A DNA stretch of 60,433 nucleotides, counting the filler, from Sluysia triapertura (lineage: Eukaryota): the NCBI GenBank assembly GCA_046118255.1. It is 5 parts of 5 records of this genome, joined end to end, with 100 filler letters (N's around TTAATTAATTAA, not from the genome) between each part and the next. Parts side by side here need not be neighbours in the genome. Positions count along the whole stretch, not along the records: positions 23,892 to 37,105 come from JBJNIA010052555.1; 4 more parts are not named here. One strand, 5' to 3'. The notes under the pieces were generated by a model, which searched no databases, was not told where the DNA came from, and saw only the letters and a program-made list of their open reading frames with translations. The position numbers and the translations under genes were made by a program. Below are positions 8,216 through 49,045 of this stretch, piece by piece. The first letter of the stretch is position 1; each line of letters opens with the position of its first letter.

Positions 8216-10170
8216 TAATTTTAAATGATTGCAAATGAACTTATTTGTCTATTAATTTTTTACTTGAAATTATCCAATTAGAACTGAGATACCAAATCAT
8301 TTTTAATTTGTTTTATTAATTCAGCGAAATCTAAGTTTCTAATTCCAAACAAAACTTTACCAGTATCAAAAATATTGATAAACAAAGAATTGTACTTCAA
8401 ATATCATAGAACCAGAAAAATCCAGGTTCAACATGCATTGACTGCAAAATTTCGTTGAGAGCTTGCATAAATTAATTGATTCTGTCCATTTTGAATGACC
8501 ATGATTGTGTGCAATACATTCCGACTCTGATTAAGTATGAAATATATTCTATTAGTTTCTTACATCCACTAATTCTGCTTTTACAATTAACACAAATAAC
8601 CAATACATAATCTTATAATTTACATACGTACTGTTTTGGCTTCCATTGATTAAATTTTAAATGAATAATATTATCTAAAACGCGAACTTTGTCATTAATA
8701 TTTGCTAATATGTCACGTAAGAAATGACAAAATGATTTCTTTGCACCTATTCATGTGCATACATTTTATTCCATAAATTATTACATTCTTTGTTCTATTT
8801 TTTCTGTCCATCCATACACTAAAAGAATTTACATAAAATATGAAGAGCGTTTTCTATTGTATCATTTTTCATGTTTATAAAGCAATTCAAAATTTACCAA
8901 AGTCATCAGGTACATCATCAGGGACCAACATCGGTTGGCTTACTAAAATAGTCACCCAATGGCAAACCAAAATTTTCATCCGAAATAGATACATTAGATA
9001 CAGAATTAAATGAAACACCAATATATTAAAATACAAAAAACCTAGAATATAATATACTATTTACAAATTCAAAACACGTGTAAGTCTATCTGATGCTATT
9101 TTCTTAGGAATAAGTAAAGAATATATAATATTTCTAAATGAAATACTAAACAAATTCAAAGTACAAAATATAATTCCAGAACATACTTTTATTGGCTAAT
9201 GAAAAAACAGTGTTACAAGAATAATAGAAAATACCTCATCTACGAAAATATTGTTGCATATACATCAATTTGATAAGTCGGAGGTGGTTGCGATAATATT
9301 TATTACTCAAAATAGATTTTATTTATTTATAATATGAGCTTATAAAGTTCTACTATCACTCTATAAACCAATAACTAAAAATACATATTCAATTTACGAA
9401 CACCAAATACAAATTTAATATTTTCACTCTAACCAAAACATTCAACTAATAAGATCTTCTCAAACTTGTACCCGTGCTAACCACAGTAAACCACGAGTAA
9501 ATCATATGTTCGAGATAAACCAATCCCCAGATGGGTTACTTTAGAACATTTTGATCATAAAGAATTATAAATTCTAAATTAAAATTCAAACAATTTATAA
9601 CCTAACTGGAATAAAGTGTGTTACACAAAAAGACAGACATTTATTGATTACAAAATCTATTTTCCATTGTCAATTAATGTTTGAAATTTAATTATAAAGA
9701 ATAGTTTATTGGTTTTTTAAAACTAATTAAAATAATTTCTTTTCTGATTATAAAATTCACTATAGAACTAAAATAATAAATTTGATTAACAATTAATTTA
9801 ATTTATAAAAGTATGAAAATGGCGTTATTTGTGTAGTTTTATTTTTTCTTCTAAGCCATACGTTTAGTCTCATGCAAAGCTTTAAAAGTTTGTGCATGTA
9901 AAGTGTATTCTTTTTCAATTTTTACACTTATTAGTAATATAATAATGCGAATGTAAGAGGTATCATCAAAGATCTTCTCGTGGTTACGTTCAATATTAAA
10001 AAATAAGAAAATAATAAATTGAATAAGTAATGAATAATTAGGATTTGACGAAGTTTTAAGTGGTACGCACGCAACGGTTTGAATTCATTTTATTTATAAA
10101 TAATTAATTTTATTTAAATAATTAATAATTAGCTGTTTTTATAAGAAAAAAGCTTAAGCACCTTCTTTGT

Positions 10171-10323
10171 AGACCTAAAGTGCTACAAAATAATGATAGT
10201 GTAATTGACTATAATAAAACAAAATTGTTAGACGGGGCAGTGATCAGAGCATCGAACTGCACAGCTGTGAAGAGAGAAGTGCCGGGTTCGATTTCCGGTC
10301 AGTTCATTTATTGAAGTCTAATA
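10171..10323 (+). mobile_element. tRNA-cassette mini-LTR family, degenerate copy A
   Basis: Shares the upstream AATTGACTATAATAAAA(C/T)AAAA..AGACGGG, a B-box GGTTCGAT and the 3' GAAGTCTAA with 59291-59447. The A-box region is partly deleted. Confidence 0.7.
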
Positions 10324-10899
10324 TTTAAAAACTTAGAACGTGTGCAGAATCGGCTTTAAAGTCATTTGAATTATTAAATATGAATTTTAATGAGTTCGGT
10401 CGTATAATCATTGAACTATCAGCCCAATGTAACAATTTATTTTCATTATCAACAACAATTTTTAAAAGTTGTAATTAAATAAGTGGGCTAAGTAAATTTT
10501 GTTTTTTGTAAAACCATTATGTTTTATAATTTTATAATTCTTCACGGACTGCATCAAGCATATTCACTATGTTTTCTTATACGAATTTTTACGGGAAATT
10601 TTACCAGAGTCAATAAATGATTATCATTAAGTATTAAGTATTTTATATTGTCATTTTTTAGTTTGTATTTTATAAATGTTAACCAATCTTCCAATTGTTT
10701 TAATATAATACATTATTAGTTTCCTATTTTCAAAGATATTATGATTTGTGGTAAATGAAGTTAAGAACTATACCAAACTTAATAAATTGGAAAGTAAAAC
10801 AAATGTGTAGCCAAATAATTCTATGTATGTATGTCTTGTTTTTAGTTGATACTAAGTACAGAATATAGAATTTAAATGATTTTAAATTCTACTGATGAA

Positions 10900-12870: not shown

Positions 12871-14475
12871 AAAAACGCGACAATAATCCAAACTTTTATG
12901 TATTTATTTTGTTTACCAAAAATATGACAAAGAACAAGAAAAATAGTAACTGCCCACAGAAATTAACATTTTATTGATAAAATTATATTTTTATTGTTTG
13001 TATAGAATTTCTAAATGCTGAACGATAATAAAAACATCGACGATAAATTCTCTATTAACAATTTATTATTTATTCAATTTTTATTAAGAATGCTCATATA
13101 TTAATCGATCGATTGATGAAATTGAATTCAACAATAAAGACTCCATGTTTAACAATAAAAGGCATCAATAATAGCATTAATTCTCGTTACAAAGATATAT
13201 CACATCAAATTCAACAAATAAACAAGAGAAAAAAAATATTATTTTTATGGTCTTATTATTTCATAGTCTTCAAGTTTGCGAAATATAATGCATTATTAAT
13301 AAAGTATTAATGATAACTTATATGCGACTATCAAATGGTTCTTTTAACATTTTCTTTGTTCGTGCGTTAAATTCTTCTATATGTTAGCATTCTTCTTCTT
13401 TACAATGAGATGTGATATCGGTAAAATTATTAATTGGCACATTATATAAAAAGGTATTATGTTTAGAGAAGATATGAAATTTCATTATCGTAATTGTTAT
13501 TAAATTTATTAAGTTACAATGAGAAGTTTGTTTTGTTATGTCAAGATTTTCAATCAAATTGTGTGTAAATAGGTGCTATTCCATATTTACAATTTACATA
13601 CAACATTCGGTGTATTTTAATTGAGATTTAATCTTAATCTTTTTGAATTTATGCAAGTGTGAAATTCACCACAAATGCTAAACGAAATTACGCAATTTGA
13701 GATTGGTTGTAAAACAATTAATGCTGAAGTTTATTTTGTAATAGTTCCATATTTTAAATGTAAACTTTAAAAATAAACATTATTCAAAAAATGTATTTAG
13801 ACATTCCCTGCCTACTTATAATTTACCATTTGTTGCATTTTATTGGTAGTAAAGTGATTCATTAAGAGTCATAAAAATAAAGTAGATTATTGATGATGTG
13901 AGTATAGGAGAATGTAAAAATGTAATGAAACGTGATTGAATGTGTAATATTAATGTTGGGATTTTTAGAGGATGATTTTTGGATTATGACAAACTTGAGG
14001 TAGATCATCCAGAATAAATAATTGTAAAAACGAAAATAGCTATTTGTAAAATTGATTTTACTGATAAGAAAATGGTTTTAATTAATTGCAAATTAATTAC
14101 GACTTTTAAAATCGACTTGGTTTATCATAAACTTGTAAATAATAATATTAGTAATTACGATATATTCAAAAACATTATATATAAATATGATGAAGTTTAA
14201 AATACAAGAAAAAATATTAATAAATAATTATCATTTAAAATCTATTGTAATATATATGTAGTTTGAATTTGAATTATTTATGATAATAATTACAACGTCG
14301 TAGAAACTTTATTGAAACATTCATTTAAAAAATGACATTAGAACAAGTAATCTCTATTGTTATATTAATTATATTTCAACAATTAAAAAGTGTAACGTAG
14401 CTTTATGAAATATTTATTGAAATTTTTACAAGTTATTTATCATAATTTGAATTGATTATAAGTGTAAAATAAAAT

Positions 14476-15246
14476 ATGCATTTATTTACTTTATTATGTT
14501 GGATAACAATAATTATAGAATTAATATGGACATACCAAGATACCAAATTACAATGTTGTTTTAATGCTTTCTTGAATAACAAAGATGTTTTTATTTATAC
14601 AAATCAAAAATGTTTAACTGCGACTGGATCAAATAAAAGTATGATATCAAATAAAGGAATTTATATTGGTAGTAAGAAACAGTTATTATTTCGAATTGTT
14701 TCAGGTAGTGGAATAAATCCATTAAGTATATATCAACAAAATTTCCAAATGAATTATAAAGATGATAAAGGTAATTTTAAAAGTGTCATACTTGAATTGT
14801 GGAATGATGTGAAACCGCAAATGATAATTGTAGAAGCTAAGAGTGATACTGGTATTGTATTAGTAAATATGACTTTTAATATTAATTCAACTGATACAAT
14901 ATTAACATGGTATAATTTGAATAATTTGGTATCTGTTTATCCATATGATATTAATATAATGAAAAGTCAAACTTATAATTATTTTAGTGTCACTGGGCAT
15001 ATTACTGACGATAACAGTACTGCGCAACGAGTATTTTATATTAATAACTTTTATGAAACTGGTGATACTGGATATTTTGTAATATTGCAAATAGTTGATG
15101 TTTGCGCATATTTTTCTCGTACTATAGTACCAAGTATAGTTTATACTCCTTATGGTGGTAGTCATAAATGGAATCAAGATTATAAATCAGCACAATACTT
15201 TGAACTAACTGGAATATATGAAGATAACGTTTATATGTTACCATAA
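14476..15246 (+). CDS. Intact single-exon 256-aa secreted protein with a conserved invertebrate extracellular domain of unknown function
   Basis: Longest ORF in the window, ATG to TAA, with a hydrophobic N-terminal signal peptide and a short PAN/apple-like Cys segment. Motifs LLFR..SG.G, FKS.IL..W, TWY, YFSV.G, R.FYIN..Y...DTGYF, C......P.I.Y resemble a domain I recall from marine invertebrate proteins. Confidence 0.8.
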   Translation: MHLFTLLCWITIIIELIWTYQDTKLQCCFNAFLNNKDVFIYTNQKCLTATGSNKSMISNKGIYIGSKKQLLFRIVSGSGINPLSIYQQNFQMNYKDDKGNFKSVILELWNDVKPQMIIVEAKSDTGIVLVNMTFNINSTDTILTWYNLNNLVSVYPYDINIMKSQTYNYFSVTGHITDDNSTAQRVFYINNFYETGDTGYFVILQIVDVCAYFSRTIVPSIVYTPYGGSHKWNQDYKSAQYFELTGIYEDNVYMLP

Positions 15247-18052: not shown

Positions 18053-19600
18053 ATGACAATGATGAACTTTTCGTTTGAGTTAATGGATTTCAAAGACGCA
18101 AAAAGTACAGTTATTGAAAAGAGACCGTCGTTATCTATAAAAGGTCGAAAAAAAGATTAAAATATGCAACTAAAAAGCCTGACCAAGATACCAATTACGA
18201 TAACTTAACCGACAATGAAGTAGATAAACTATTTGAATTATTTATGCGAAATATAAATATTCCAGTAATATTCCAGAGATAATTTACGTAGGTCTATTAA
18301 AATACAAATGATTCAAACTAATAAAACGATTGCTCAAAATAAAGGAGTTACTCATTGTGTTGAAAATTTAAAACAGAAATGTGAGAATAAAGAAATAAAC
18401 GCCGAATTCTTAGAAGATGCACGAATAATTATTCAGAATTCTACAATAAGTGTAATTAAAGAATTTGACAATGAAACTAATCACGGTGTTACTTTATTAA
18501 TAAAATTAATCGCTTCTATTCATGATAAACCTAATCTTCTGGAAATTAGTATGAAGTACTTGAAGGCATTTGGTAATTTTGGCTATGGTTTATTTACCAT
18601 GATTAAAATTGAGAATGCTTTGACCCATGTCACATTTACACTTTCAGGCACTAGTAACTTGAATGCTCTTGCAACAATGATAGAGATTTTGATGGTTTTT
18701 TTATTTTTATAGCAAAAGTGGTCATCCATATTTATTACAAGCTTTATTTGAAGCAAGCAGCTTGAAAAATCGTGGTCCTTTTGAACCTATTGTTAGAATA
18801 ATTCAAGAGCGTAGTCAAATTTTGAAAGAGAACTTAAATTTATGTTTCTAGTATATTCGTTTTGTCTACATTATCACAAACCCAAAATTTGTCAATCGTG
18901 ATTCTGATTTAGATTATTATTACAGAATGCATTTGAGACGGGAATTCGTTTTGTGTGGATTGGTCAAAGTTCATAATGATATATTACGAAATGTCTACGT
19001 ATCGCATGATATTAAATCGTATATTCAAAATTTTTATCAGGAAATTGAATGTGATGAATCTGAATACACTAGAGATGTTAAAAAATGATTTCAGAATTTG
19101 ATGATCCGATTCAATTGTTCCATCTTCTTAATAGCACTTGAGATTAAATTTGTAGTTATTACATCAATTCCATATTAGAGTCTCTTATGACAATCAAGAT
19201 TGTTCATGCTAGGATTTATTCGTATAAATTAGTAGATGCTAGCGTGACTGATTTAATAACTCAACTATCAGAAGACGAGAATTTCAACTTCGATCTGACT
19301 CATTACGGTTTTTACTGTATCAAATTAAAGGATTTGTATGATTATAAAAAGGACGATGAAATTTTTGATTTAATAGATGAACGAACTCAATTAAATATGA
19401 AATTAAAAGAATTACAAGTTGAAAATGATGTATTGAAAGAATCTTTGAAAGATGTGCCAAAACCTGATACTGCTCTTTCATAAGCTAGAGAAAGTTTGAA
19501 GAATTCTAAGGTTGATCATATTTCAACCAATCCTTCAACAATACGTCAAGCGACGGGAATTACGCGTAATTCAGTTATGTTATGGAAATTAATGCGCATT
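18053..19600 (+). pseudogene. Diaphanous-related formin N-terminal half (GBD/DID-FH3-DD-coiled coil), disrupted, with no FH1/FH2
   Basis: Collinear motifs LTDNEVDKLFELFMRNINIP; FLEDARII.....VIKEF...GVTLLIKL; YLKAFGNFGYGL; GHPYLLQAL...RGPFEPIV; DLDYYYRMHLRREF..CGL; EFDDPIQLFHLL; SILESLMTIK...RIYSYKLVDASVTDL. Several stops and frameshifts, and no polyproline. Confidence 0.8.
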
Positions 19601-20983
19601 TATGAGATATCGTTAATCAATGAAGAAGCATTTCCAGGCCTTATGAGTCACTGCTATCAAAGATCATGAAGTACCAGCGAAGACTACTATTAGCTTACAT
19701 CCTTTTTCTGAACTAGTAAATCTTAAATGTAATAATTCAAATTCAACAAATGATCAATTTGAAAATAGAGAGTCATTGTCAGATTCTTGGCCAACTGCAA
19801 GTAATAGCAGAAATACAGATATTATCAATCCTACTAATATGTTCGTCAAGTCTGTTCCGAGTTTCGTCATTATTATTTATAAATTATATCACGTCTCACA
19901 TAAAAAAGCTGCCAGTGATCTCCAAAACCAAGACAGATATTTATCCACTAACCAAATTTTTTCAATACCAAAAGATCTTGTACTACAAAAGGAAGATCGA
20001 CAATGGTAAAGTTTCTCCAGAATAAAGTCAAGAACAGTCACTATCAAACATTACTGACAGTAAAATTTTATTTTATTAATTTTAATTAAATATTAATTAA
20101 TATTTAATATTAATATTCAATCCCATAGTGTGGCTTGCTGGCATACCTACTGATGCAGTACAGAGATCATCAAAGCTGAAAAAAATTTAAATAAAACTTT
20201 GAAACTTATTAAGCATATTTTTACAATGTTCTACAATTTAATAAATAATAGTTTTTGTGTATTCCGTGAATATTTGATTAATAATGATTCGTACAAAACT
20301 TAAAAATCAAGTTTGGTGAGATAAAAGGCTAATTAATAGGTTATGCTACTTGTAATGACCAAATTTCTAAGTTTAGGCATTGTAATTTAATGAAAGATGA
20401 TAATAATTTTAACTTAATTATATTACAATATAAAAGTACAATATTTAAGACTGTAAATTTTTCCTTTTCATATGAACATAATAATGCTCTAAATCAGTAT
20501 TCTTCATACGAAATCATAAACCCTCTAAAATAATAATAATAATTTTACAACAAATATTTGTTTTGATGTTAAATGTTATTTCCACATCTAGCACTTTTTC
20601 AATTTATAATTCAATTTAAAATTTTTGATTTCTACAGTATTACTAACAAAAAAACCAAACAAATTTATTTTAAAACTACCAAAAAAAATAAAAATGTTAT
20701 TCATTATTTTCAATTGTTGGTGAAAAAATGACTGTCGAAATAATAACCTTGTTCCAATGATATTTAATTCATAATTTTATATGAAAATTTAAATCTAGTA
20801 CAGAAAATAAGTACGAAAAATATGTTTAGCATCATTAAATAAAAAATATAAATTAAAAAATAAGCAGGTTTTTTTCTGGAAACAATTATATAAAAAAATA
20901 ATGATCGAAAATGTACTTCAATTTTTCACGAAATGTATGACAAATAAATGGCAAAATATTAATCCAAAAGAAACATTATTATC

Positions 20984-21208: not shown

Positions 21209-21585
21209 CTGTAAATAATTAAATCAAATAATATGACTAATCATTTATAAGTATCAAATTTTTCATCTCTTAAAGTATGCGTAGATATTGTCTAACATAG
21301 CAAAAAGAACTTATCGAAATGTACAATTATAAGGTTTATTTGGCTTATTTATTTATCAATTTTATTTCGATCAATGATAAAAAATATCTCAACTCTTTTT
21401 CCGAGTACATAATAGCAGTATAATATGTAGATAAATTATGCAATTACTAATTGATATCAACCAGTAATCCTTACGTAAAAAGACATTGGTAAAATTTACA
21501 CATTCAGAACCTCACTTAGACAAATTAAAAATTATTTGTCATAAAATGTATTACTAATGCATGGACATGCAGAAAATAGCAAATT

Positions 21586-23302: not shown

Positions 23303-25659
23303 GTGTTGCAACCTAACACAAAGGATTATTGTAATTTATATCAGATATTGATAGGAAATAGTATTAGACTATACCCTGATGCAGGTATTCTATACAAAAA
23401 AATAAAAACTAAATACTAATTGATTATTTTTGGAAAACATTTATTTTATGATTTTTCTGTGATCTTCATTTACATCGCATAAATAATCGAATTTGGAATA
23501 ATTTTCTATTAATGTTAATCAATTTATATTAATGCCATACTTAAACTCGCATAGTAAAATGCGATACAGAAACCTAATTTTATATTTACAAAGTTTATTT
23601 CTGTACAATGTTTGGTTTTATACAAGTTTCAGATTCCCTCTAAGAAATAGTAGTAAAACATTAAATTATATACATTTGTAAGTAAATAAAACTTTAGTCA
23701 TTTAAAAATAATTTCATTTCTAATTTAAAATAATTTTATTTTTATTTCCAATTTAAATTAACAATAATAATAATAAGAAAAAATAATAAAANNNNNNNNN
23801 NNNNNNNNNNNNNNNNNNNNNNNNNNNNNNNNNNNTTAATTAATTAANNNNNNNNNNNNNNNNNNNNNNNNNNNNNNNNNNNNNNNNNNNNTATATATAT
23901 ATATAAGAAATTATGTTAAAGAACGCACAACATTAAGACAGAAAGTTTTTAAAAAATATTTTAAAAGTGCTCTATCAGCGATTTTGACCAGAAAAGTTTA
24001 TCTTGACGAAAGAAAAAAGAACAGACATACTATTACAGCACCATTTTGGACGACTACACCAGAAGGATTATTCTAAAGGAAATAAATCGGTTACATTATC
24101 ACGAAACTATCATTACAGACTTTGGATACAATATTATATTGGATATTTGGAAACATTATTATTGTCAAAATTCAAAAGTAACAAAGTAAGATAATATTTC
24201 CAGGATTGCTTCAATAATTTTAGCTTTAAATTTAATACTTAAAATCATCAATTTGTTCAAAGCCCAAGTATTAGGCCTTGGTTAAAATCTTAATAAAATA
24301 GAAGTTCATTCTTTTTGTTTAATTTATTATTGTTATTATATTTATTTTATTATATTTTGCTTACGTTTTATAGTAAATCTTTGTTTTTAATTAGTTATTG
24401 ATGATAATTAAAAATTTTGCATTAATCAGTTATTAAGAAATAATTAAGAGTTTAATTGATTAATGAAATTAATTTTAACTAAACGATAAGTCTTTACAAA
24501 AATTAAAAAACATAAATTAAGTATAAACGCATAAGAATACAAGTAAGAGACACATTGCATATGATTTATTCGCTTTTTAAGATTAAGGCAACGTCTTAAG
24601 TGGCAATTTTCTGTGATACGTCTACTTCACGTATACCACCAACGCTCCCTAGTTAACTATAATTGTTAAGTTAATAAACAAGAGAAAAAACTAACAACAA
24701 TAATAAGTACAATTCCCGACTTCCTAGCAATTATTAAAATAATATAAAAAGAACCGCACAAAGAAAATTATTATAACAGTTAATACTTTTGGTGTAAGAA
24801 TGCTGATTCAATACAGTAGTGGCCAGGACTGATTGAATCTTACAAATCTTTAGAAATCGGACTAAATTTTATCTTTAAGCCAACTTATTTGTGGTTACTT
24901 GGGTTTTTACTATTTATTTATTGAATATTAGGTACTAACATTTGTTGCGTATTATAATTGAATTTTATTTTATTGAATAATTAATTATTATTGACTTAAT
25001 CATTATTTGATTGTTAAAAACTTTGTAAAAATAGTAATACCGATATGAAAATAAATGTGATAAATAAATAAAAATGACACCGATAATAATTATTTAACAG
25101 AGTAGGAGAGGTCTTTACTAAACTTAGCTTTAAAAATACAAAAATACTAAATTTGTACATTAGTTTAAATATTGCCTGACTACTCAGTTTCTCGGGTAAT
25201 GCATACAATATTCTTTGTCAATCAATAGTGCAGAACACCTACCATCTCAAAGTTGTGATTTAAATAAATAATTACTTTACTTTACTCCCACTCAAATTCA
25301 ATAATTTCATTTATAACTACACAAGTATAATATGCACGCGCATTTCATCTAATCTCACATTAAATTATGTATATGGTAACAGCACTGTATCATTTGTTCA
25401 TATGCCTACATATTCGAAATTTATGAAAATATATTTTATCCAATACTTGCATTGCAACAGAAACCACTACATATACGTGACTAATATTTATCTAAATTGT
25501 TTTAATTTCAATTCCTTGATTAACTATTATTGTGCGTCAGTATTATAAAATGCAGTATTAATTTTAGTACTATTAATGCATTCAAATAATCAATAATAAC
25601 TTATCACTAAATGAAAATGACGCATACAAATTAAGTTTATATGTATTTACGTATGCAAA

Positions 25660-26704
25660 AATGATGGGCTATAACCTAACCTACAATGCAAATACGCCTA
25701 GAAGAGTTCGACCTAACAAGAACGACTTAAGTCTGGACGACGGCGGCCTATTAGGATTTACTGTGTAAAAGATAGAAATGACAAAGGCTTAAGATAAGGG
25801 TTATTTTTGAATGATTTTTAACTTAAATAAATTATTAAATTCGATTGGTAAATTTAATGATTTTAAGTTAGCCTTTTTACGGTCTAACTAATAAAATTAA
25901 ATGTTAAATTAGCCTGTTACGGTCTAATTTTTTGAAATCAAAATGTTAATGTTATAATATTGAGCTATCCTTATTACGGTATAGCGTTCTTTACAATTTT
26001 AGTAAATAACAAATTTAAAATACACAGTTATATTACTACAATAAAAGAATTAGATTATATAGAAGTAGTGGTTACTGATAATAATAATAATAATAATAAG
26101 GATTTTATTTAGCTTAAATTCAATTGAATTTAGCTTTCAATATTTTAGAATTAAGTTAACTTATCCTTTACGGTATAAGTTTTAAAAACTAAAAATTAAT
26201 TTAAGTTAAATTTTGCCCCTCCCTTCTTACGGTGAGGAGAATAAAATCCTACTAAAAAATAATCTTACTAATTGCATGGATTTTCTTTGCTGGCTGAAGA
26301 TTTTTCTGAACAATATTTTACCAAAAACAAATACTGGTTTCAACCCACAAATTGTTGGTTTTTTATATCCAATTTTTGTTTCTAGCTTCCATATTGTTCA
26401 CACGTAATTTTATTGATTTAAATAAACAAAAATTATTTTTTAAAACCAAAAATATTTTTTAATACTTTTATTTTAAATTATTTAGATTAAAAATATCTTT
26501 TAATACTTTTAGATTATTTAATAATATTTTTTGTTTATTTTACATTTTTATAATATAATAATAATTTTATTTATAAAAAAAATTTTTTATAATTTTTTAT
26601 AATATCATAAATAATAATTAGTTAATAAATAATAATATTAGTCAATTAGTTATAAAAAAATCACATTTATAATTCTTCACAATATTCCAGTCAGTTTCTT
26701 CACA
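25660..26704 (-). mobile_element. Solo-LTR-like element H1 with a 5-hairpin array
   Basis: Approximate TGATG...TTCACA limits, no TSD found. Same layout as 28236-29304. Hairpins at 25866-26237. Confidence 0.45.
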
Positions 26705-27639
26705 TATGTTACGTAATACTTTACCGTGTTTCAAAAACGGTAACCTATCAATCTTGATAAATTAATATTTTTAGTTGATTTTACAACCGAGTAAAATCGG
26801 TAGCTTTATTTTACAAATTCTTGTATAATAATGAAAGAAAAATTATAAAGTTTATTATTAAATGAATATAAAAATTATACAAAAATATAGGACAATATAT
26901 AAAGTCAATAGTGTATTAAAGATTAATAAATAATCAATAAAAATGTAATTCTAATTTGATATTTCAACTCCTCTTAAAAGGGTTGTTAAAAATTTCAATT
27001 AAGATTTTAAGTAAGATTTTTCAATCTTGTAAAAAAGATAATGCTTAAAAAATCAAACTAACGAATAAAATTATTATTGAAAAATTCTTAATCCAGTGAT
27101 AAGTAAGAATCCTATGAAAAATATGTCTTGATAATATTTGGTTAAAGAATTTCTTTCCACTAATTGATCCGACGATTTTTTACCAAGTATCCTCAAATTT
27201 GTATTTGTTTATTATGTTAAAATTTTTAAAAATTTCAAATTCGTATATGTTTTGTGCAGTTTCAACATTATATTTATAATAAAGGTCTAGTGACTTTGAA
27301 TCATAAAGAAAAACAAGAATTTTTTAAAGAATTTAATTAAAATTATTATTTAATTTATTTTAATTTATCATATTAATTTATTTTAATTTAATTTAATTAA
27401 TAATAATAATAATAACAATAATAATAGTAATAATAATACCAAAATTAGAAATTATAATTATATAATTATTGATAGACACAATTAAAGAAATTTCGACATT
27501 AAAATTTTTTTAGAAAACACAATTACATCAATTTAAAAATTTGATCTCTAACTGACCTGATAACAACAACAACCACAACAATAATAATAATATATTAATT
27601 TATATTGCGCTCATATCTACTGCAAAGTAAGTATTCACA

Positions 27640-28235
27640 ATCGCTTAAAATAAATCATTCACCGTAATATTTCTGAAACAAAAAGAACTTTGCCTTTTTC
27701 TTAAATATTTCTTAATCTTCAAGTAATTTTACATTCTCCGGTTGTACATTTTTGAGACAAACGGTATACAACTTATCACCTAGCTTGTTATCACTGTGGA
27801 TTCTGCATAGATTATCATGCCTCAATGAAATATTCATCTTGCTTTCCAATTTTCGTATTATTTCTAAAAGATATTCGGGACTTCCATAATGTAAGTATTT
27901 GTAAATTATTGTCATGATTTTGAATTCTATTCTTGCTTTTATTGAAAACTAATTTAATTCTTTAAGATAAGGTGTTACATGAGATCTTCCAACGTGGAGA
28001 ATTAGTCTTGCTGCTGGATTAATTATTAATTGTAATTGTTTCACTTTTCTATCTGAAATTGAGTACAACAAACCATTGCTAAAATCTATGTTGCTAGTTA
28101 TCAATGAATGAACAATAAGTTTATTCGAAATTAATAAAATTTCGAATTTTTGATATCTTATTTAATTTATATTTATACTTTTAACAATACATTAATATTT
28201 TCTTCCATGTTCATTTTTGAATCCATATAACAACC
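27640..28235 (-). mobile_element. L2-clade LINE ORF2, 3' part
   Basis: GCYMDSKMNMEENIN; LIVHSLITSNIDFSNGLLY...KQLQLIINPAARLI...SHVTPYLKELN*FSIKARIEFKIMTIIYKYLHYGSPEYL is the canonical L2 post-RT region. Confidence 0.85.
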
Positions 28236-29304
28236 TGATGCGAGATTTTCTATTAAAAGACTTAAAACTTATTGCAAATTATCTGAGAAGTCGGTTCGCC
28301 TAATATATACGATTTATACCACTAATTGGAGACCTACTACTAGGTTTTCTTAATTATACTTAACTAACTTTTAACTTATGACTTAAGTCTTATTAATTTA
28401 TACGACAATCCTTTACTAGGTGTTGTTTAATTAAACTGTTATATTTTCTATTTACGCAACCCGTATTAAGATGTTGCTTTCTCAAAATAAATATGTTTCG
28501 CAACCCGTATTAAGGTGTTGCTTTACGAAACGAATTTTAAATTAATAACAAAAAAACACTTAGAATCCTTAAGGTATATAAACAGAACTTACAAAAAATA
28601 GCGTATTATAAGAATAATATTTTAGTCAACTACTCAATTTCAGTTGGTAGTTTTTTAAATATTTTAAAAAGATTTTCCGCAACCCGTATTAAGGTGTTGC
28701 ATCAAAATAGAAATAGTTTAAGTGTATTTTAGGTTTCCTTTCTTAAAGTGAAACCATAAAACATATTAAAATAAGAATTACTTCTTATGCATGGAATTGA
28801 AATATTAAAAATGTTCTTCTGGAACTTCGGATTAATAAAAAATTTTCTTCTGGAATGTTAATTTGAAATTCTAAAAAATTCTCTGGTTGTTATCTAAAAT
28901 TTTGTTCTAAATATTTTATGCTAAAACTTACCCATTTATACTTAATTTATTCCAAGATGTCTTCCAATAAATTGAAACATTGAAACAATAACTTTTGTTC
29001 AATTTAATTTCTTTTATATTTCTATTAATTTTATTTTAATTTCTTTTATATTTATTTAATTTCCATTAATTTTAATTTAATTTCTTAAATTTACTATTTA
29101 TTTTAAATTTTATTATTTATAGTTTAATTATAAAATTTAATTAATTTTATTTAATTAATTGATTTCAATTCTATTATTATTAAAATTATATTTTGAATAT
29201 TTGATTTAATATAATAATATATTTAATATAATAATAATAAATATTTAATAATTTTACATATTAAACATATTTAAGTTACATATTAAACACGTTTAAATCC
29301 AACA
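28236..29304 (-). mobile_element. Solo-LTR-like element H2 (1069 bp) inserted in the L2 LINE, with a 5-hairpin array
   Basis: TGATG...CAACA termini. Removing it rejoins the L2 motif KVRNI-G-CYMDS. TATAAATGGG on the minus strand at about 28931-28940. TSD is not intact. Confidence 0.75.
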
Positions 29305-29540
29305 CTATATTTCGTACCTTTTGTTTTGCATCTAGTTCTTACTACCTAGAATTAACTTTGCTTCATTTCTTTTGGCATTGTCGCTTTATTATTACTAAAG
29401 ATTATAAATTCTGACTTTTCTTCATTGATTTTCAAGTATTTACTTCCAAACCATTTTATCAATTCAGATACTAGTTGTTCTGTTCTTTGAATAGTATTTT
29501 CTATGTTATTCATTTCATAAATTCTCTTGCAAAATATCAT
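29305..29540 (-). mobile_element. L2-clade LINE RT C-terminal part
   Basis: LVSELIKWFGSKYLKINEEKSEFIIF (W...N.LKLN..KTE....) followed by KVRNI. Confidence 0.85.
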
Positions 29541-30399
29541 TTTATTGTATTATTTTTGTACATATATTTCATCTTTAATAATATACCTTTAAGAAAATTT
29601 CATTTTTGTTATCTGAAGTTTATAAGAAGTAATTAAAAAGATCCTTTTAATAGGATTTCGTGCAAACCATTTAAATATTAATATTTTAATAATAATAATC
29701 CTCCAAAATTAAGACGGATTAGCTTAAGAACGCCTTTGTAGAAAAAAGAAAAAACTTAATCAAGTTACTTTTAAGAAATCTTTTGCATAAAAAATCTAAC
29801 GGCTGGCCCTAGCTGGTAAGTCCAGTACGTTGGTGGATTCACCTTCAATTTAATCTTTATTCTACCTTTCTCACAGATCTAATAATACTATTTCATATAT
29901 TTTCAACTTTCGATACAAAAAATTTAAAAAAGTCGTTTGACATAACTTTATCATTTTCAAAATGATTTTCATTTTTACCAATTAATTTATTTAATAATTT
30001 ATAAATATCTTTAATAGTTTTCCTTTTTATTATTACTATTATTATAACACAATAAGAATATAATAAACAATACTAAAATGACCTTAAAGGTCTATATAAA
30101 AACAACAAATTTAATTTTTAATGCTAACGATAATCTCAAATGTTTATTCTTTAGTGGATATTAGTGCTAAAAATATATTAATATAAAGTAAGTGATTTTT
30201 AAATAATTATTAAATGACTAATTGGGAGTAAATGCTAGTATTAATAGAAAAATAATGAGAATGTGTTGATGATTTTAGAATGTATATTAAGGATATGAAA
30301 GGTGTATTAACTAATAATTAAAAGTTGATGTTAGTGTATCCCTTGATTGTAAGTGATTGAGAACATTTAATGTTTCTGCTCACTGCATATGCATTTGTA

Positions 30400-32555: not shown

Positions 32556-33208
32556 TTAAATTACAAGTTTGGGTAAAACTAGATGTGGATTTTACAACTT
32601 GTAAATAAAGTTTGATTGGTTTAAACCTTCATTGGTTAAACCTTGCCGGAAAAATCAATTATTTGTTCTGTTTTTAAAAATACTTAAATATATCGTAATT
32701 ATTTAAGCAATTAAAAAAAATAATTATATTACTTAAAGATATTATCATTTACAATATATTTATTTATCATTGTTTTCAGCTTTACAAAAAACCGAAGTAT
32801 GTTAGATTAATTTTTCTAAAATTTAGTTGTATAATTAATATTAACGTACTAACATCTAAAACATTATTCAGAATTAACAGCAAGTCTCTGCTACTTATCT
32901 AAAATTATCATAAATGTGTGGTTATATGAACATATTTCTTTTTTTTGCAAATCAGCTTTTCGAAAATTAGGAAATGTTTGACATTTTGAGGTCGGATTAC
33001 TTCATTTCTTTATGAAGTGTGCAATCATTACAAGAAATTTCAACTCTCTTTAGGTTAAACTATTACATTTGAAGAAAATGACTGTTTCCAAGCATTTCTC
33101 TGTTTATCCATTTGAAGGAAAACATTATTTTTCCATGCTAAAAGACCACCTTCCAGAAAACACAGTCTGTTCAATAATTTTCATGTAAGGTATGCATTTT
33201 TGACGATG

Positions 33209-33261
33209 TTATTTGTGCGATCTCGTAATTTAATAATTAAATTATAAGATCGCACAAATAA
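33209..33261. repeat. 53-bp near-perfect palindrome, probably the core of a foldback MITE
   Basis: 26-bp arms with 2 mismatches and a 1-nt spacer: TTATTTGTGCGATCTCGTAATTTAAT-A-ATTAAATTATAAGATCGCACAAATAA. Confidence 0.9.
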
Positions 33262-36200
33262 AAAATCGCATAACAGGTTTGAGTGTACTGGATTTCTGGA
33301 ATCAAATTTGAATCCATGTGATACTTGCAAGCAAAAGTTTATTACCCGAATCCATCAGAAATCAAAGTAAGATTAGTTCATCCTATTCAAGGTGCAGTAA
33401 AGGGTAGCAGTATTTACTGACAATTTAATTCCTCGATTGGATACTGTTGTGATAAAGCTTTTAAAATTGAGATAAAATTTATTATTTTTTAATTAATTTT
33501 GTGTTACTTTTTGGTCAGATGTACAGTATCGTTTTTATGTATTGTGTCAAATAATGTAGATTTTAAAATTTTCCAACTTTCTCGAATTTAATCTATATAA
33601 ATTAAAATATTAACTTTTTCAAGACACAACTTGCATTGCATATTTTGCTCATAACCCTCAAAATTATTAAATATTAAAGTGATTCGAGTAATTTTTAATC
33701 TTAATCAATACATAATTTGCCTTTATTACTCATTATAATTTTTAATGAGATTACAAAATTTGTTAATATTTATAAAAATACATTCACATTTTTTATAATA
33801 ATTAGTTGCTTTTAAATTTGTGTAGGAGGCATTGTTTATTTCACAATTAGTAAATTTTTGAGCTTTTTCTACATCCTTTTATTATATTCGGAGCTATTTC
33901 TTCAGTTATACAATTATTAAGATTTGTAAAAATTCAAATTAGTAGATATTCTTTTTATTTTACAAATATTTGCGATATACTTTTATTACTTTTAGTCTTT
34001 CTTTCTACCTTGGGTTGCATCAAAATTAAATTAAAATAACTTTTGGCAAATTGTTTTGTTTAAATGTGTGGGACAAGCATTTTTACTGAATAATTATATA
34101 AAATTTATTTTCCGAATTTCTAAATTAATCAATCAATAAAATAAATATTTAATATATTTAAGGAAAAAATGAAAAGGAAACGATATTAATATACAGAAAT
34201 TTATTATTTTTCTTAGTGGTCCAAACCGGATAAATGTATGAATGCATTAATAGTAGAATTTTTATTTATTTATAATATTTTTAATTTTTGAAAAATAACA
34301 TGAATTATATATTTATTTTAAACCATACATAGACTCCTTGTTAAAACAGTATTCCGAAAATATGTGATTTATATAAATTTTATTTTGAAGGCAGCAAGTA
34401 TTAAAATATTTATAAAGATTCGAAAAAATTCATTGATAACTAATAAAATAGATTATAATATTGGTTTTGTAATTATAATGTGAAATGTGCAATTAGTTTT
34501 GAAACAATCGACAGAAATTAATACATGGGTTATACGAAATCATGGTGACAGTTTATACATTCTTACTTTGTGGATCCTGAAAATGTTTTGAATATTATTA
34601 GAAATGTTGAAAATAAAATGAATGTATAATGATGGCTTATGTGAGATACATGTTTTTAAAATGATAACGTCTATGACAAATGAGGTTTTTAAAGCGCTTT
34701 TGAGTAATTATTTCATTCTTATTAGATATTAACGCTATATAAATTATTATTATTATTATTGACGAATATACAAACAAGTAATCCTATTTTTGGATGAGAA
34801 TTTATAGTCTAAACGAAAAATTCCCAAACTACGTTTCACTGAACATTACTTTTCAGTAAAACAATTAAAAACTAAACACTAATTGATTATTTTATGCAAT
34901 CACGTAAAATTAATTCAATTACTGTATACTAGAAAATGCAAATTAAAAGTTTTAAATTTAAAATGCGTAAACTTAAAACATCTTGCATAACATCATGTTT
35001 TGATTTTAATTTTCACAGTCTACAATTCATTATTATAATAGTAATATTGGTTTTATGTTTCCTTATTGAATTACTCTATTACTCTATTTTCGCCATTTTC
35101 TATAACTTTATAAAATCAAAACATTATTATTAGCTACTAAATATTTTTAGAAAATTCAAATTAAAAAAGTTCAAATATTTCAACAAATGCAAAAGAAATT
35201 TTTAGATAAATTGGTTCATTAATAATAGACAACAATGTCTTTTGCGTAAATATCTACAAATGTAGATAAGAAAAATTCATTGGTCGAAAATTTTGTAACA
35301 CATCAAATAGATTATCAGATGACTGTATATCTGAACTGTATGGTGAATGAGATAATTTTTTAAAGGAATTTTGAAGGGCATTTGATGGAAAATTAAACAA
35401 AAATAATTCAAATTGTTAAACTCAAACCAATATAAATGTTTGAAAATGTGAAGGTACTTCTGAAAAACTGTATATTGAATCGTCAGTGGTCTTTATGAAA
35501 CTGTATTTAATATAAATAAAGTTTTAAAAGTACAAAAATGATTGGAGCATAAGTGTAGTGGTCCAACTTATTTTAAATTTTATTTAATGTAGAAAAGAAA
35601 ATAAATATCAAAATTTTTTAAACATCGTAATATCAAAACTTTAAAATGCAATACTAGATTCGAAACGGGAAAGAGATAAAGTCGCGTAAAAGAAAGAAAG
35701 CAATTGAAGGATATTTGAACACTTCGACTGCGAAAGCAGAAATATTACAACGAATAACAACGACATCAATCTAATATTGCGAGGTTTCTAAATCGAGTAA
35801 GAAAATAACTTTAAACGAACTGAAAAAAGAACCAACTCAAAGTTCGAGAAACGAAATGAACAAAGAAAAAGATGCCTGCAAGAATTTCTCAGTGAAAGAG
35901 CAGTGTTATGAGATTCTTAATAACCCTAAATTTTATTAAATTGATAAAACAGATGAAATCAAAGAGCAATGCTACGAAATTACCAATTAGATGAGACAGA
36001 TTAATGAAAGAGCGAAATAGTTAAAACAGGTACGAAGTTCTTAATAATGTTAAAGTTTATAAACGTGTGAAACAGATGAAACCAAAGAGCAATGCTGTGA
36101 TGGGCTTAATAAAGTAAAGAATATCCATCTTGAATCAGATAAAGCGACCAAACTCAACATTTCGGAGTAATATAAGTCATCTACTGAACTCATCTCCAGA

Positions 36201-37690: not shown

Positions 37691-37937
37691 ATACATATGT
37701 CTATTCAAAGGTCCGTTGTTTTAACTTCTTTGTACAAAACAGCAGAATATATTGGTACAAATTATTGTGACAATATAAGTCGCAATTTACCGAAAAATAT
37801 TCCTGAATCAATTAAGCGTCAGAAAATGTCTTGTTGTCTTAAAACATTTGCTATCCATCCTAGAACATTAGAACTTCATAATTTGAAATATCCTAAACTT
37901 ATAAATCTAAATTATTGTGTTGGTGATTGTTTTCTAA
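37691..37937 (+). CDS. Exon encoding the N-terminal half of a divergent TGF-beta/activin-type mature ligand
   Basis: TTTTTAG| acceptor and |GTTAGT donor. TNYC...SCCLKTFAIHPRTLELHNLKYPKLINLNYCVGDC aligns to TGF-beta TNYC..CC..LYIDF..LGW.WI..PKGY.ANFC.G.C. Confidence 0.65.
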
Positions 37938-37958
37938 GTTAGTTTCAAATAATTCCAT

Positions 37959-43189: not shown

Positions 43190-44261
43190 TAAAATTGTAA
43201 CTATACATGAATGTGTTTTAATGGATATAAGGATTGACCGAGTTCGTGCGAGGAAAGCCTCCATATTGAGCAAAGTCGATTAAAAAGAATCCGTATAAAA
43301 ATGACATTGGTACTATTTTTATCATGCCTCCCAATAATTTACTTCGACCGGTTTCTAAAGATTTAGTGTTTGCTATTCATATAACAGATTATGATGACAT
43401 TCGACATTGTTGCTCAAAAGCAGATGTTTGTAAAAAATGTTGGTCTTTGATGACTGCAGGAATGAAGATATTGCATCGTATTCTAACTGAAGACTTTGTT
43501 TTCAAACATTTTGTGGCAATCATTGTTGGGTTTCTATAAAAGAGAGTTTTTTCTGCTGCTGTACAAGATAAGGAAAATTGTGTCTTGAATATAGAAAAGA
43601 TTAAACCTTTTGAGATTCTAACAATGAATTTAAGAGTAAAGTCTATGCCAAACAAAGCTCCACTAATTAACTCATCTGAGTTAAACAAGGACGATAAAGA
43701 TAAGTGTAAAAATAGCTCGGAGAAGTGCCCAGTGTAGTGATTTCCGTAATGAACAAAAAGCAAATAATATGTTCAAGATTTTAATGTCTGTTCGATCTGT
43801 TACTGTTAATTCAATCCATCGCAAATAAGTCCACGATTTATCAGGTATAGATGTTTGTTGTGAACCATTACTTTGTCCTTAGACAGCTTACCAAGTTGGT
43901 GAATGTACAAAATTCGGAACTAAATGCGTGTATGTACACAGTGTTAATCAACTGTGCATTCCGAACGGATCATCTCATTAGACTTACAGATTTATTCGTA
44001 AGCATTGGAGTAACAACTCCAGAGATACTTGATGACATTATTTTTGTTGGTAATAATAGGATAAATATTTTTTACGATTACATTAAAGATATTTTGACTT
44101 TTGATTCTTTTTCAGATAGTGAAGCGTGGTTATCAGAAAACACTATATGCGGACCAAACTCTATGAAAATTCAACTTTTTAAATTTGATATAATAAATAA
44201 AATTTTGTCTACAGATTCTCATTTACTGTTTATAAACTTCAAATTTTATCATTTTGCTTAA
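43190..44261 (+). mobile_element. L1/Tx1-like LINE ORF2 remnant, multiply deleted
   Basis: KRVFSAAVQDKENCVLNIEKIK...DDKDKCK is homologous to the 48780-49045 translation. Also YTVLIN, LDDIIFVG (YADD-like) and W...KIQLFKFDIINKILST (L1/Tx1 C-terminal pattern). Confidence 0.55.
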
Positions 44262-46702: not shown

Positions 46703-48239
46703 TGCGATCCTAGTCTTACGTTTTGCGTTAGACTGTATGATTTTTAACGGTTAAGAATGTGGAATAAGACAATGAAGGTAAATTACGAAATTCGATTAAG
46801 TTTATTAACACTTCGTGTTAATCATAACGGAAATTCTATTGAGGAGCCTTAAAACAGTGAATGTTAAATTAGAATATTGATTCGAAATCCACTTCAGAGC
46901 GAGGTTAAATTAGTTTCCGCAGGATAGCGAGTTTAAATTTAAATTGGATTTTACTTACGTTCTTTGTAAATAGAACGTGTAACAAAATAGGACTTTAAAT
47001 ATAAAATAACAACGTAGTAACGAGGATTTTAATAGAAATTACAACTATATAATTTTACAATTTATCGTTGATCTGTTTTAAAAAGATCAAATAAAAGAAG
47101 ATTTTATATGATTACTCCAGATTTGATTTAAAAATTCTTAGTAATAATTAAATTTGATAAAATTTTGATATTAATGGTGTTATAAATGGTGATCATATAT
47201 AAAATTGTTAGACTTCATAAAATGGACTGACGTAAATCGAACATGAGCCTCTTGCTGCTCAGTTCGATGATTAAAAAACATGTATTAATATAATGGTTTA
47301 AGTCTCTTCTCTTTTGTTAATAGAAGTAAGGTAAAATAGAAGTAAAATAAAATAATTATTTTTATTATATTAGCATAAATTTTAATAAAATATTAACTTA
47401 AATATTTTTACATTTTTAATTTTAACTTAAAAAATAAATTTTAAAATTAATATAAATATTTTTCATAAATTTTAAATAAGTATTATTTTAAAAAGATTTT
47501 CTTTATTTCGCAAAGGATTTGGTGATTAAATCAATTAAATTAATTCGAATAAGTTTCAACATGGCTAAGGCCTAATTAATATAAATAGCAATAATTTTTT
47601 AGGAAAGAAAATTTTAAATTTTTAGAAGAAGTAAATTTATTAAAGAAAATCTTTTTACCGAAGACGATTTATTCGCCGTTTCCATGCAAAAGTAATTTTG
47701 TTTAATAATAATATTCATCTTATAGGAGAATATTCAAATCAACTTAAATTCATTAATTTTTTATGCAAGACCTTAAAAAGCCTTGTGATAATAATTTTAA
47801 AATCTGGATGCCACCAACTGAGGTTGAGTCTGCTAATAAATTATTATTTTTATTATAATTTAGTTGATACTTTTGAGCTCCTTTTATAAGTGTTTTGCAT
47901 AAGCGTTATAGTAATTTGTATAAGCGTGTTTAGTAACATACTTTAAGAAATTTATTTAGTTTTTATTATTAAATCAAAATCATTTTCATCAATAGTGCAA
48001 TTTCTAAAGACCTTAAAAGGCTAGAGTAATTAATTAAAATCTTTGAATAACTTTTGTACAAGACCTTAAAAAGGCTTGTGTGATTTATATTTATTGAACT
48101 AGACCTTAAGAAGGCTAGTGTAAAAATAATAACATAATTTAAAGTAATTAGATTTGAAAGAGTTAATTTTCAAGAAGCATAGCTGTGTTTAATTAAGTTT
48201 AATTAAGAGAGTAAGGTTTAATTTCAAGGACTTGTAACA
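46703..48239 (+). mobile_element. Solo-LTR-like element H3 with a 4-hairpin array
   Basis: TG(CGA)...TAACA limits with flanks CACC/TACC (TSD with 1 mismatch, tentative). TATAAATGG at 47181. Hairpins at 47765-48119. Confidence 0.5.
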
Positions 48240-48289
48240 TACCCACTTTAAGTTTAGTCTAAGTTTAAGTTTTTTGATAAGTTTAAATC

Positions 48290-49045
48290 CTAATAGCATA
48301 TCTCCAGAATTGATATAAAGCGTGTGTATTTGGCGAATCGACCCTCAGTTATTTTGTAAGTGCAAGTTCATTTTAAGATAAAACACTTGGATAAGTTTTT
48401 CCTGCAGTTTTTCTTGGAGATCAGCATACTTCGCAATATTTGTAGTTATCTCGAAGGCCAGAATATGATGTTGGCAGATTTATCATATTAGACAAATCTG
48501 TAGACAATTTGTTGTAGTCTATCGAAGGCAGTGCCGATGAGGGTTATGTCGTCAGAATATGTCAGGTATGGAGGAAATTTTAGTGATTTTGATATACTCA
48601 TCATCCGTGAACTGACGACAGATAATTATCATGGACAATGGACATCTTTGTTTCACTTCATGAATGAAATATTATTTTTTACGGACATTAAATTCTTGGA
48701 TATATCATTAGAATATTGTCATTTATGAGGATCAGTATGATGATATACTGAACATATCTCCAAGCCTTTTTACATTCATCTTTGTCATCCTTATTTAATT
48801 TGTAGAGCATTATTTGAAATTAAGTTTAAGCTTGCATTTATTGTTAGTAACTTACAAGATTTGATCATTTTTATATTCAATAAATTATCTTCTTTAGCTT
48901 GTATAGCGGTCATAAACATTCTTTTGCATGGCTTAGAGTAATCATAAACTATACCAGTAACTATTGGTGCGAGCTTTACATTTTGATTTAGATCAATCCA
49001 ATCAATACGACTAATTATATTTCCTCCTACTCGAAAACTCAACAT
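48290..49045 (-). mobile_element. L1/Tx1-like LINE ORF2 remnant, same family as 43190-44261
   Basis: ISRIDWI (end of APE endonuclease), KRMFMTAIQAKEDNLLNIK..DDKDECKK, YLTYSDDITLIG (RT YxDD). Confidence 0.6.

What the first reader, a model, noticed from the sequence alone, without database searches (positions are those of the whole stretch)
25866..26237. Array of five covarying bulged hairpins in element H1: structure conserved, stems different
Seen on plus: AGTTAG-CC-TTTTTAC-GG-T-CTAACT (25866), AAATTAG-CC-TGTTAC-GG-T-CTAATTT (25906), GCTAT-CC-TTATTAC-GG-T-ATAGC (25964), AACTTAT-CC-TTTAC-GG-T-ATAAGTT (26158), CCTC-CC-TTCTTAC-GG-T-GAGG (26218). The stems differ in sequence yet pair perfectly, while the bulge, 2-bp upper stem and loop end are invariant. 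On the minus strand this reads stem-A(bulge)-CC-GUAA(N)AA-GG-stem. Known: the MS2 coat operator is ACAUG-A-GG-AUUA-CC-CAUGU (5-bp stem, 5' bulged A, 2 bp, 4-nt loop). Inference: a multivalent protein-binding RNA array, such as a Gag packaging signal or a TAR/export-like element, in an LTR leader.
Basis: partly seen in the sequence, partly recalled or inferred. Interest (0 to 1): 0.85.

Follow-up and report, generated by a model that had tools for sequence, protein, structure and literature searches.

The report
Repeated bulged hairpins in mobile element
A roughly 1-kb mobile-element remnant, present three times in this stretch of an AT-rich animal genome, carries five small hairpins whose shape is kept while their stem letters change, probably a set of docking sites for a protein on the element's RNA.

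Summary
The five hairpins are real and at the stated coordinates: 9 strict copies in the window against 0.05 in shuffles. They belong to a ~1.0-1.3 kb interspersed repeat with three diverged copies (A 25.6-26.7 kb, B 28.2-29.3 kb, C 47.3-48.4 kb minus). Each copy has five hairpins in a 3+2 layout, a conserved upstream block, a TGCATGGA motif and an AT-rich end. Of the first five stem pairs, 70 of 75 are Watson-Crick; the T bulge is kept in 15 of 15; two upper stems change compensatorily. Hairpins 1-4 are homogenised within each copy. B lies between two pieces of a decayed LINE reverse transcriptase, so the unit was probably mobile. Its class is unsettled: solo LTR (A has TGT..ACA ends and a 6-bp duplication, but a joint score is at background) or a truncated non-LTR 3' end. 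No primer site or gag/pol was found, so 'LTR leader' is unsupported; the MS2 loop rule is not met; the strand is undetermined. Best reading: a multivalent, loop- and bulge-specific protein-binding array on retroelement RNA. No Rfam, protein, prokaryotic or literature match was found.

The parts
25642..26665 (+). Copy A of the repeat, candidate extent (TGT...ACA ends, flanked by an exact 6-bp direct repeat TTTATA); ends tentative
   Evidence: 1-3.5% of shifted window pairs give such a hit; joint score not above background
25685..25761 (+). Conserved upstream block of copy A, shared with B and C
25866..25889 (+). Hairpin A1 (6-bp lower stem)
25906..25930 (+). Hairpin A2 (7 bp)
25964..25985 (+). 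Hairpin A3 (5 bp)
26112..26134 (+). A different hairpin (4-nt loop) at the same position in all three copies, upstream of hairpin 4
26158..26181 (+). Hairpin A4 (7 bp)
26218..26237 (+). Hairpin A5 (4 bp, extendable to 6 with one mismatch); the fifth position has its own stem type in all copies
26273..26280 (+). TGCATGGA motif, identical in A, B and C
26281..26665 (+). AT-rich distal segment (U5-like or 3' tail-like) with AATAAA at +149 from the motif
   Evidence: positional conservation not significant
28236..29304 (+). Copy B, candidate extent (left end 28208-28250, right end 29258-29304); no target duplication found
28404..28427 (+). Hairpin B1 (degenerate, two G.T pairs)
28456..28477 (+). 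Hairpin B2 (one upper-stem mismatch)
28500..28521 (+). Hairpin B3
28679..28700 (+). Hairpin B4
28732..28755 (+). Hairpin B5, compensatory upper stem CT/AG
28788..28795 (+). TGCATGGA motif of B
47315..48400 (-). Copy C; homology with B begins near 48400; a TGT...ACA pair with a 5-bp duplication would extend it to 48644
   Evidence: 10% background
48098..48119 (-). Hairpin C1
48058..48079 (-). Hairpin C2
48004..48026 (-). Hairpin C3 (two stem mismatches)
47766..47785 (-). Hairpin C4 (one upper-stem mismatch)
47710..47734 (-). Hairpin C5, compensatory upper stem TC/GA, 7-bp lower stem
47681..47688 (-). TGCATGGA motif of C
29305..29549 (-). Flank of B (not part of the repeat): decayed non-LTR reverse-transcriptase piece just after the catalytic motif
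   Evidence: RVT_1 E=0.09; 5 of 6 PDB hits are LINE-1 ORF2p or RT, E 0.3-2.6; weak
27600..28235 (-). Flank of B (not part of the repeat): decayed C-terminal part and tail of an L2/CR1-like LINE
   Evidence: read by eye against recalled motifs; related copy at 34427-34761; no database hit

Best explanation
The array is the cis-acting part of a retroelement's terminal non-coding region. A, B and C are dead ~1-kb remnants of three related subfamilies, either solo LTRs (about 0.4) or 5'-truncated 3' ends of a non-LTR element (about 0.3). In the element's RNA each unit folds into a 4-7 bp stem, a one-base bulge, two base pairs and a U-rich loop. An element-encoded protein (Gag/nucleocapsid or a LINE ORF protein) reads the bulge, upper pairs and loop end by sequence and the lower stem by shape only. 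Five units give avidity, so the protein picks its own RNA for packaging or reverse transcription. Units 1-4 are renewed by duplication or template switching within a lineage; unit 5 is kept apart. Shown: hairpins, covariation, 3+2 layout, homology, homogenisation. Inferred: mobility, RNA rather than DNA, strand, element class, ligand.
For: Motif 9 vs 0.05. Own-arm pairing 66 of 70 vs permutation mean 31.8, 0 of 100000 (14 copies). 6 of 7 pairs show two-sided changes and slid controls fall to 29-46% paired (10 of the 15 copies). Bodies of A, B, C are homologous, z 6.3-12.7 against local shuffles, 70-74% identity over aligned columns. Spacings are 41/56/196/57, 51/44/179/54 and 40/54/239/54. Arms of units 1-4 are 72% alike within a copy (18 pairs) vs 45% between (48 pairs), 6 of 20000 permutations. 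B lies between two LINE-RT-like pieces in gene order on the other strand. The five A hairpins fold at -5 to -7 kcal/mol as RNA and -1.5 to -3.9 as DNA. Precedent: zebrafish L2 ORF2p recognises the stem generally and the loop specifically, and a stem swap keeps about half the activity (PMC4176376, passages); a one-base bulge is needed for UnaL2 mobility (PMC1636434, passages).
Against: No full-length parent, paired LTRs or element protein was found in the window or in protein databases. Terminus evidence is mixed: B has no TG..CA pair with an exact 4-6 bp duplication, and the joint terminus score is matched by 51%, 54% and 71% of shifted windows. TATA and AATAAA positions are no better than shuffles (153 and 186 of 1000). 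There is no clean poly(A) tail. The RT identity of B's flanks is below significance thresholds. The strand is undetermined. RNAalifold found no consensus structure on the plain three-copy alignment. Only three, related copies were available.
Confidence: 0.5

Rival explanations
1. Same retroelement RNA, but the ligand is a host protein for export, germ-line transport or decay (for example Egalitarian/BicD-like, or Roquin- or SLBP-like, the last two recalled).
For: Egl needs 3'-strand bulges and two stem-loops and carries I-factor RNA (PMC13186709, passages and section 8). A second repeat family in the window shares the CC..TTAA-GG-T core, which would suit a common host factor.
Against: Egl signals have upper and lower helices of at least 6 bp; the upper helix here is 2 bp, at most 4. 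The Rfam histone stem-loop match is weak (18 bits vs 34 cut-off, E=0.28).
Confidence: 0.2
2. The hairpins act in single-stranded DNA of a rolling-circle or other DNA element (Helitron-like, HUH-recognised bulged hairpins).
For: No target duplication at B, no strand bias in wobble pairs, A|T junctions are possible.
Against: No CTRR-T end near A or B; one near C, at the wrong end for a match in the others. Canonical Helitrons have a single 3' hairpin (PMC8969392, passages). No terminal inverted repeats longer than chance AT matches. DNA folding energies are weak.
Confidence: 0.12
3. Copies of a host mRNA 3' UTR or non-coding RNA family (like the five iron-responsive elements of transferrin receptor mRNA, recalled), spread as retrocopies.
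For: The window holds decayed intronless gene copies (primase twice, formin). B-versus-C substitutions in the upstream block follow codon position (12/40, 5/39, 15/37; P=0.024), as at the end of a coding region.
Against: Three copies with different stem families in 60 kb imply many source lineages. The codon pattern is absent in B-versus-A and A-versus-C. The peptide has no homologue.
Confidence: 0.1
4. A double-stranded DNA binding site with dyad flanks, or neutral quasi-palindrome correction by template switching.
For: The 12-nt core is conserved in sequence and template switching can perfect inverted repeats (established knowledge).
Against: All three base-pair types occur at the innermost stem position, so the flanks are not read as sequence. 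The asymmetric T is kept in 15 of 15 and the two compensatory upper-stem changes keep pairing; palindrome correction would tend to erase a bulge.
Confidence: 0.07
5. Chance or assembly artefact.
For: AT-rich, gapped assembly (10 N runs).
Against: no N run lies inside A, B or C.
Confidence: 0.01

Closest known systems
Stringent LINE 3'-tail stem-loop (UnaL2, ZfL2-1/-2)
   Same: Bulged hairpin in a retroelement's terminal non-coding region; stem read by shape, loop by sequence (PMC4176376, PMC1636434; passages).
   Different: Those are one hairpin next to the terminal repeat. Here five lie about 430-1000 nt from the AT-rich end, with a 2-bp upper stem and a U-rich loop.
Solo LTR of an LTR retrotransposon with R-region stem-loops
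   Same: About 1 kb, possible TG..CA ends, TATA-like motif then AATAAA then AT-rich segment; long R regions keep stem-loops (PMC3601003, section 8).
   Different: Ends and duplications convincing in at most one of three copies; no parent found; I found no description of a five-unit covarying array in LTRs.
MS2 operator and multiple packaging signals of ssRNA viruses
   Same: On the minus strand: 5' bulged A, two pairs, loop; many degenerate copies could act cooperatively (PMC3662417, abstract).
   Different: Loop is 5-7 nt, not ANYA; no capsid gene nearby; no phage match.
Egl-BicD localisation signals (TLS, ILS, GLS)
   Same: 3'-strand bulge, multiple stem-loops per RNA.
   Different: Helices far shorter than the required 6+6 bp; here the loop end is conserved in sequence.

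Membership tests
MS2-type operator | 5' bulged A two pairs below the loop | tested here: met
   Minus-strand folds; only if that strand is the RNA
MS2-type operator | Four-base ANYA loop (PMC10380284) | tested here: not met
   Loops are 5-7 nt in 15 of 15
LTR-retrotransposon leader | tRNA primer-binding site after the LTR | tested here: not met
   No TGG start in the three 3'-end windows; letters after TGCATGG differ among copies; three TGG starts beyond C's 5' end and two at B's do not look tRNA-like by eye
LTR-retrotransposon leader | gag/pol downstream | tested here: not met
   No such Pfam family in the flanks scanned; decay limits sensitivity
Solo LTR | TG...CA ends with exact 4-6 bp target duplication (PMC8969392) | tested here: inconclusive
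   A yes (1-3.5% background), C yes (10%), B no; joint score at background
Solo LTR | TATA, AATAAA and downstream T/GT-rich tract in order (PMC3601003) | tested here: inconclusive
   Present in 3 of 3 but not beyond shuffles
Solo LTR | Same sequence flanks a full-length element elsewhere | not testable with these tools
   Genome not available; none in the window
Non-LTR (LINE/PLE) 3' end | End of ORF2 upstream in the same sense | tested here: inconclusive
   Codon-like pattern B vs C only; no homologue
Non-LTR (LINE/PLE) 3' end | Poly(A) or simple-repeat tail, variable 5' truncation | tested here: inconclusive
   AT-rich ends but no A-run over 8; 5' ends seem to cluster near the block
Stringent LINE 3'-tail stem-loop | Single stem-loop adjoining the terminal repeat | tested here: not met
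   Five internal units, last one over 400 nt from the end
Canonical Helitron | 5' TC, 3' CTRR, one subterminal hairpin (PMC8969392) | tested here: not met
Egl-BicD localisation signal | Upper and lower helices of at least 6 bp (PMC13186709) | tested here: not met
   Upper helix 2-4 bp
Any Rfam family | Score at the gathering threshold | tested here: not met
Any protein-binding RNA array | Transcription, folding and binding in vivo | not testable with these tools
   No expression or binding data

The most novel reading that the evidence does not exclude
An undescribed invertebrate retrotransposon lineage uses a self-renewing five-hairpin array and a small element-encoded protein as a natural MS2-like tag pair, for TAR-like activation or packaging. 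On an LTR reading with the start site between units 3 and 4, the RNA would carry two units at its 5' end and five at its 3' end, giving an end-counting or circularisation device. The second repeat family with the same core (58.9 and 60.1 kb) would be a passenger on the same protein.
Probability: 0.2. Interest if true: 0.78.

Novelty: new variant of a known kind. Interest (0 to 1): 0.52.

Why it matters
Cis-acting RNA signals are known for only a few retrotransposons, mostly as single hairpins. A five-unit array that keeps its shape across subfamilies and homogenises within each would show how a retroelement secures cis-preference by avidity, and it gives a ready search model to find the parent element. 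If the ligand is a compact element protein, the pair could be a new RNA-tagging tool. If the ligand is a host protein, the array marks a route that transposons use into the germ line. The biology stays speculative until the parent and the strand are known.

Tried and rejected
Protein identity of the element: no hit for the upstream-block peptides or flanks in three homologue searches, the representative library (one spurious repeat protein), the Atlas (none; leads at 0.88 only), Pfam, NCBIfam or PDB. I first read the sequence upstream of C as reverse transcriptase by eye; this is withdrawn, because 48650-49000 is homologous to the primase pseudogene (z 7-15) and 48400-48650 is unassigned. A long target duplication around B was rejected (423 of 2008 control windows score as well); a degenerate one around A was rejected (597 of 1000). 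Terminal inverted repeats: only short AT matches. Prokaryotic relatives: 67 loci from one scan of GTDB genomes; 4 of 225 cores have stems and the model gives 5 modest hits in 3 of 67 loci preselected for the core; no phage or plasmid match to copy A. Rfam: only weak sub-threshold hits. The sigma-70 scan was at background and is irrelevant to an animal. RNAalifold on the unedited alignment gave no structure because the hairpins were out of register. Literature: ten searches, read as listings; none listed such an array; the literal-motif search returned 41 papers, of which the 20 listed were unrelated by title. The library lacks most subscription papers, and Repbase/Dfam were not available. Eukaryotic genomes and the viral and metagenome contig collections stayed unchecked. 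No supplements were read.

Full report
Setting. The window is 16-39% GC per kb, has ten N runs and few long frames. It holds three tRNA-like matches in a SINE-like repeat, decayed intronless primase and formin sequences and a weak TGF-beta-like piece. I infer an AT-rich animal genome full of old repeats. The organism was not identified (one search found no homologue).

Observation. The five hairpins are exactly as described. The strict motif occurs 9 times in the window against a mean of 0.05 in 60 local dinucleotide shuffles; a relaxed version 13 times against 0.9. Five in the 411-nt region compare with 0.007 in 2000 shuffles. To avoid selecting for pairing I searched the sequence core alone: 7 matches, 0.27 expected, all 7 with a lower stem of at least 4 bp. 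In 67 prokaryotic loci fetched for two such cores, only 4 of 225 cores have one.

The unit is larger than the finding. Two more clusters lie at 28.4-28.8 kb (plus) and 47.7-48.1 kb (minus). Their surroundings are homologous to the first: 70-74% identity over aligned columns and z of 7.9, 6.3 and 12.7 against 100-nt-block shuffles. A covariance model built from 10 copies recovered those 10, found A2 and A4 at E below 0.03, C3 at 0.38 and a further copy at 28402-28429 at 1.1, among 23 matches up to E=3; it missed C5. With that copy each element has five hairpins spaced 41/56/196/57, 51/44/179/54 and 40/54/239/54 nt. In order, each element has a conserved block of about 80 nt, three hairpins, a spacer ending in a different small hairpin (weak in C), two hairpins, TGCATGGA, and about 400 nt at 14-18% GC.

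Structure. Over 15 copies, 70 of the first 75 lower-stem pairs are Watson-Crick, the T bulge is kept in 15, CC/GG in 11, and two fifth-position copies carry compensatory upper stems (CT/AG, TC/GA). On the 14 copies known at that point, own arms give 66 of 70 pairs against a permutation mean of 31.8, with 0 of 100000 as high. On the 10 copies with 7-nt loops, 6 of 7 pairs show two-sided changes and slid controls drop to 29-46% paired. These counts overstate independence, since copies are related and were partly chosen for pairing; within A alone 2 of 120 permutations equal the real pairing. Relatedness has its own pattern: arms of units 1-4 are 72% alike within an element and 45% between elements (6 of 20000 label permutations), while unit 5 is 18% alike to its own 1-4 and 40-60% alike to other fifth units. 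So units 1-4 evolve in concert within a lineage and unit 5 is a separate position.

Strand. Region A folds better than shuffles on both strands (z -2.6 plus, -4.0 minus). Whole arrays differ by 1-4 kcal/mol between strands, in both directions. Mismatches in or next to stems split 6 A.C to 3 G.T by my tally (P=0.51). Indirect hints favour the T-bulge strand. A second repeat with a similar core folds only on that strand and ends in a UUCG hairpin, AATAAA and an ATT tail (z -2.4 vs -0.5). TATA-like and AATAAA motifs also fall in promoter-then-polyA order there, though no better than shuffles (153 and 186 of 1000). The strand is undetermined.

Mobility. On the minus strand, B is flanked by a piece that weakly matches reverse transcriptase after the catalytic motif (RVT_1 E=0.09; 5 of 6 PDB hits are LINE-1 ORF2p or RT at E 0.3-2.6) and by a piece that reads by eye as the following C-terminal part of an L2/CR1-type protein (motifs recalled, no database confirmation; a related copy lies at 34.4-34.8 kb). 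The simplest reading is that B inserted into an old LINE. This is an inference from weak matches.

Class. For a solo LTR: A has TGT..ACA ends with an exact 6-bp flanking repeat at 25642-26665, which 1% (narrow) to 3.5% (wide) of shifted window pairs match; C has such a pair with 5 bp (10%); the lengths are similar and the 5' edges cluster. Against: B has none, and a joint score of terminus consensus (PMC3601003) and duplication is equalled by 51%, 54% and 71% of shifted windows. For a non-LTR 3' end: no terminal repeats, an AT-rich end, and a codon-like substitution pattern between B and C in the block (P=0.024). Against: no such pattern with A, no homologue and no poly(A). An LTR leader is not supported: no primer site at the 3' ends, and no gag/pol family in the flanks scanned. 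Helitron ends are absent. My early reading of RT motifs upstream of C is withdrawn.

Mechanism. A lower stem that accepts any base pair, with a fixed bulge, upper pairs and loop end, is what a protein produces when it reads the loop by sequence and the stem by shape. Zebrafish L2 ORF2p does this, and a stem swap keeps about half the mobility while a loop swap removes it (PMC4176376, passages); UnaL2 needs a one-base bulge (PMC1636434, passages). Several degenerate stem-loops acting together is the packaging-signal model of ssRNA viruses (PMC3662417, abstract). I therefore favour an avidity array for an element-encoded protein (0.5) over a host ligand (0.2), single-stranded DNA hairpins (0.12), a host UTR family (0.1) and a duplex DNA site or neutral palindrome correction (0.07). 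Folding, ligand and function are inferred, not shown.

Comparison with known systems. It is not an MS2 operator (loop rule, PMC10380284, passages), not an Egl signal (6-bp helices, PMC13186709, passages and part of section 8), not a LINE tail hairpin by number and position, and not a canonical Helitron (PMC8969392, passages). It works most like the LINE tail hairpin, multiplied. No Rfam family reaches threshold. Ten literature searches, seen as listings, showed no such array; repeat databases, eukaryotic genomes and viral or metagenome contigs were not available, so prior annotation of the repeat itself cannot be excluded.

Verdict. A real, well-supported structural feature and probably an undescribed variant of retroelement cis-signals. 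Parent, strand and ligand are open. Interest 0.52.

Noticed in passing
window 58852-58945 and 60016-60150, minus: A second repeat (57 bp identical) with one or two hairpins sharing the CC..TTAA-GG-T core, then a UUCG hairpin (intact in the 60 kb copy), AATAAA and an ATT tail; folds on one strand only (z -2.4 vs -0.5). Not hit by the covariance model.
   Followed up: partly
window 32618-32642, minus: Single hairpin of the same geometry with a 7-bp stem but a different loop, about 600 nt upstream of an ORF1-like decayed region; no homology to A-C around it.
   Followed up: partly
window 43200-44300 plus and 48650-49000 minus: Two decayed, intronless copies of the DNA primase small subunit (Pfam E=2e-9 for the first), 5 kb apart in opposite orientation.
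   Followed up: partly
window 18100-20050 plus: Decayed intronless formin-like sequence (FH3, E=2e-5) with stops and frameshifts; no homologue found.
   Followed up: partly
window 37691-37942 plus: Short frame ending in a TGF-beta-like cysteine pattern (Pfam E=0.003, below cut-off).
   Followed up: no
window 10203-10331, 47199-47269, 51320-51434, 56029-56197, 59286-59448: tRNA-derived SINE-like family with a shared AT-rich 5' flank; small bulged hairpins lie just upstream of some copies (10166-10190, about 59300).
   Followed up: no
window 52707-52925 minus: Mariner-type transposase fragment (Pfam E=7e-5).
   Followed up: no
window 54900-55900 plus: Decayed sequence that reads by eye as a non-LTR reverse transcriptase of another clade; no Pfam or PDB hit.
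   Followed up: partly
window 14473-15246 plus: The longest open frame (257 aa), with a hydrophobic N-terminus and no Pfam match.
   Followed up: no
window 21546-21572 plus: A fourth TGCATGGA with weak similarity to the same region of A-C (E=1.7) but no hairpin array.
   Followed up: partly
window 26715-26800 plus and 33209-33261: Other strong hairpins: two just beyond A's candidate end, and a 53-nt near-perfect palindrome.
   Followed up: no
L029:1493-1559 and L054:1460-1520, minus: Two bacterial loci with tandem near-identical repeats that happen to fold like the motif; stems do not covary.
   Followed up: partly
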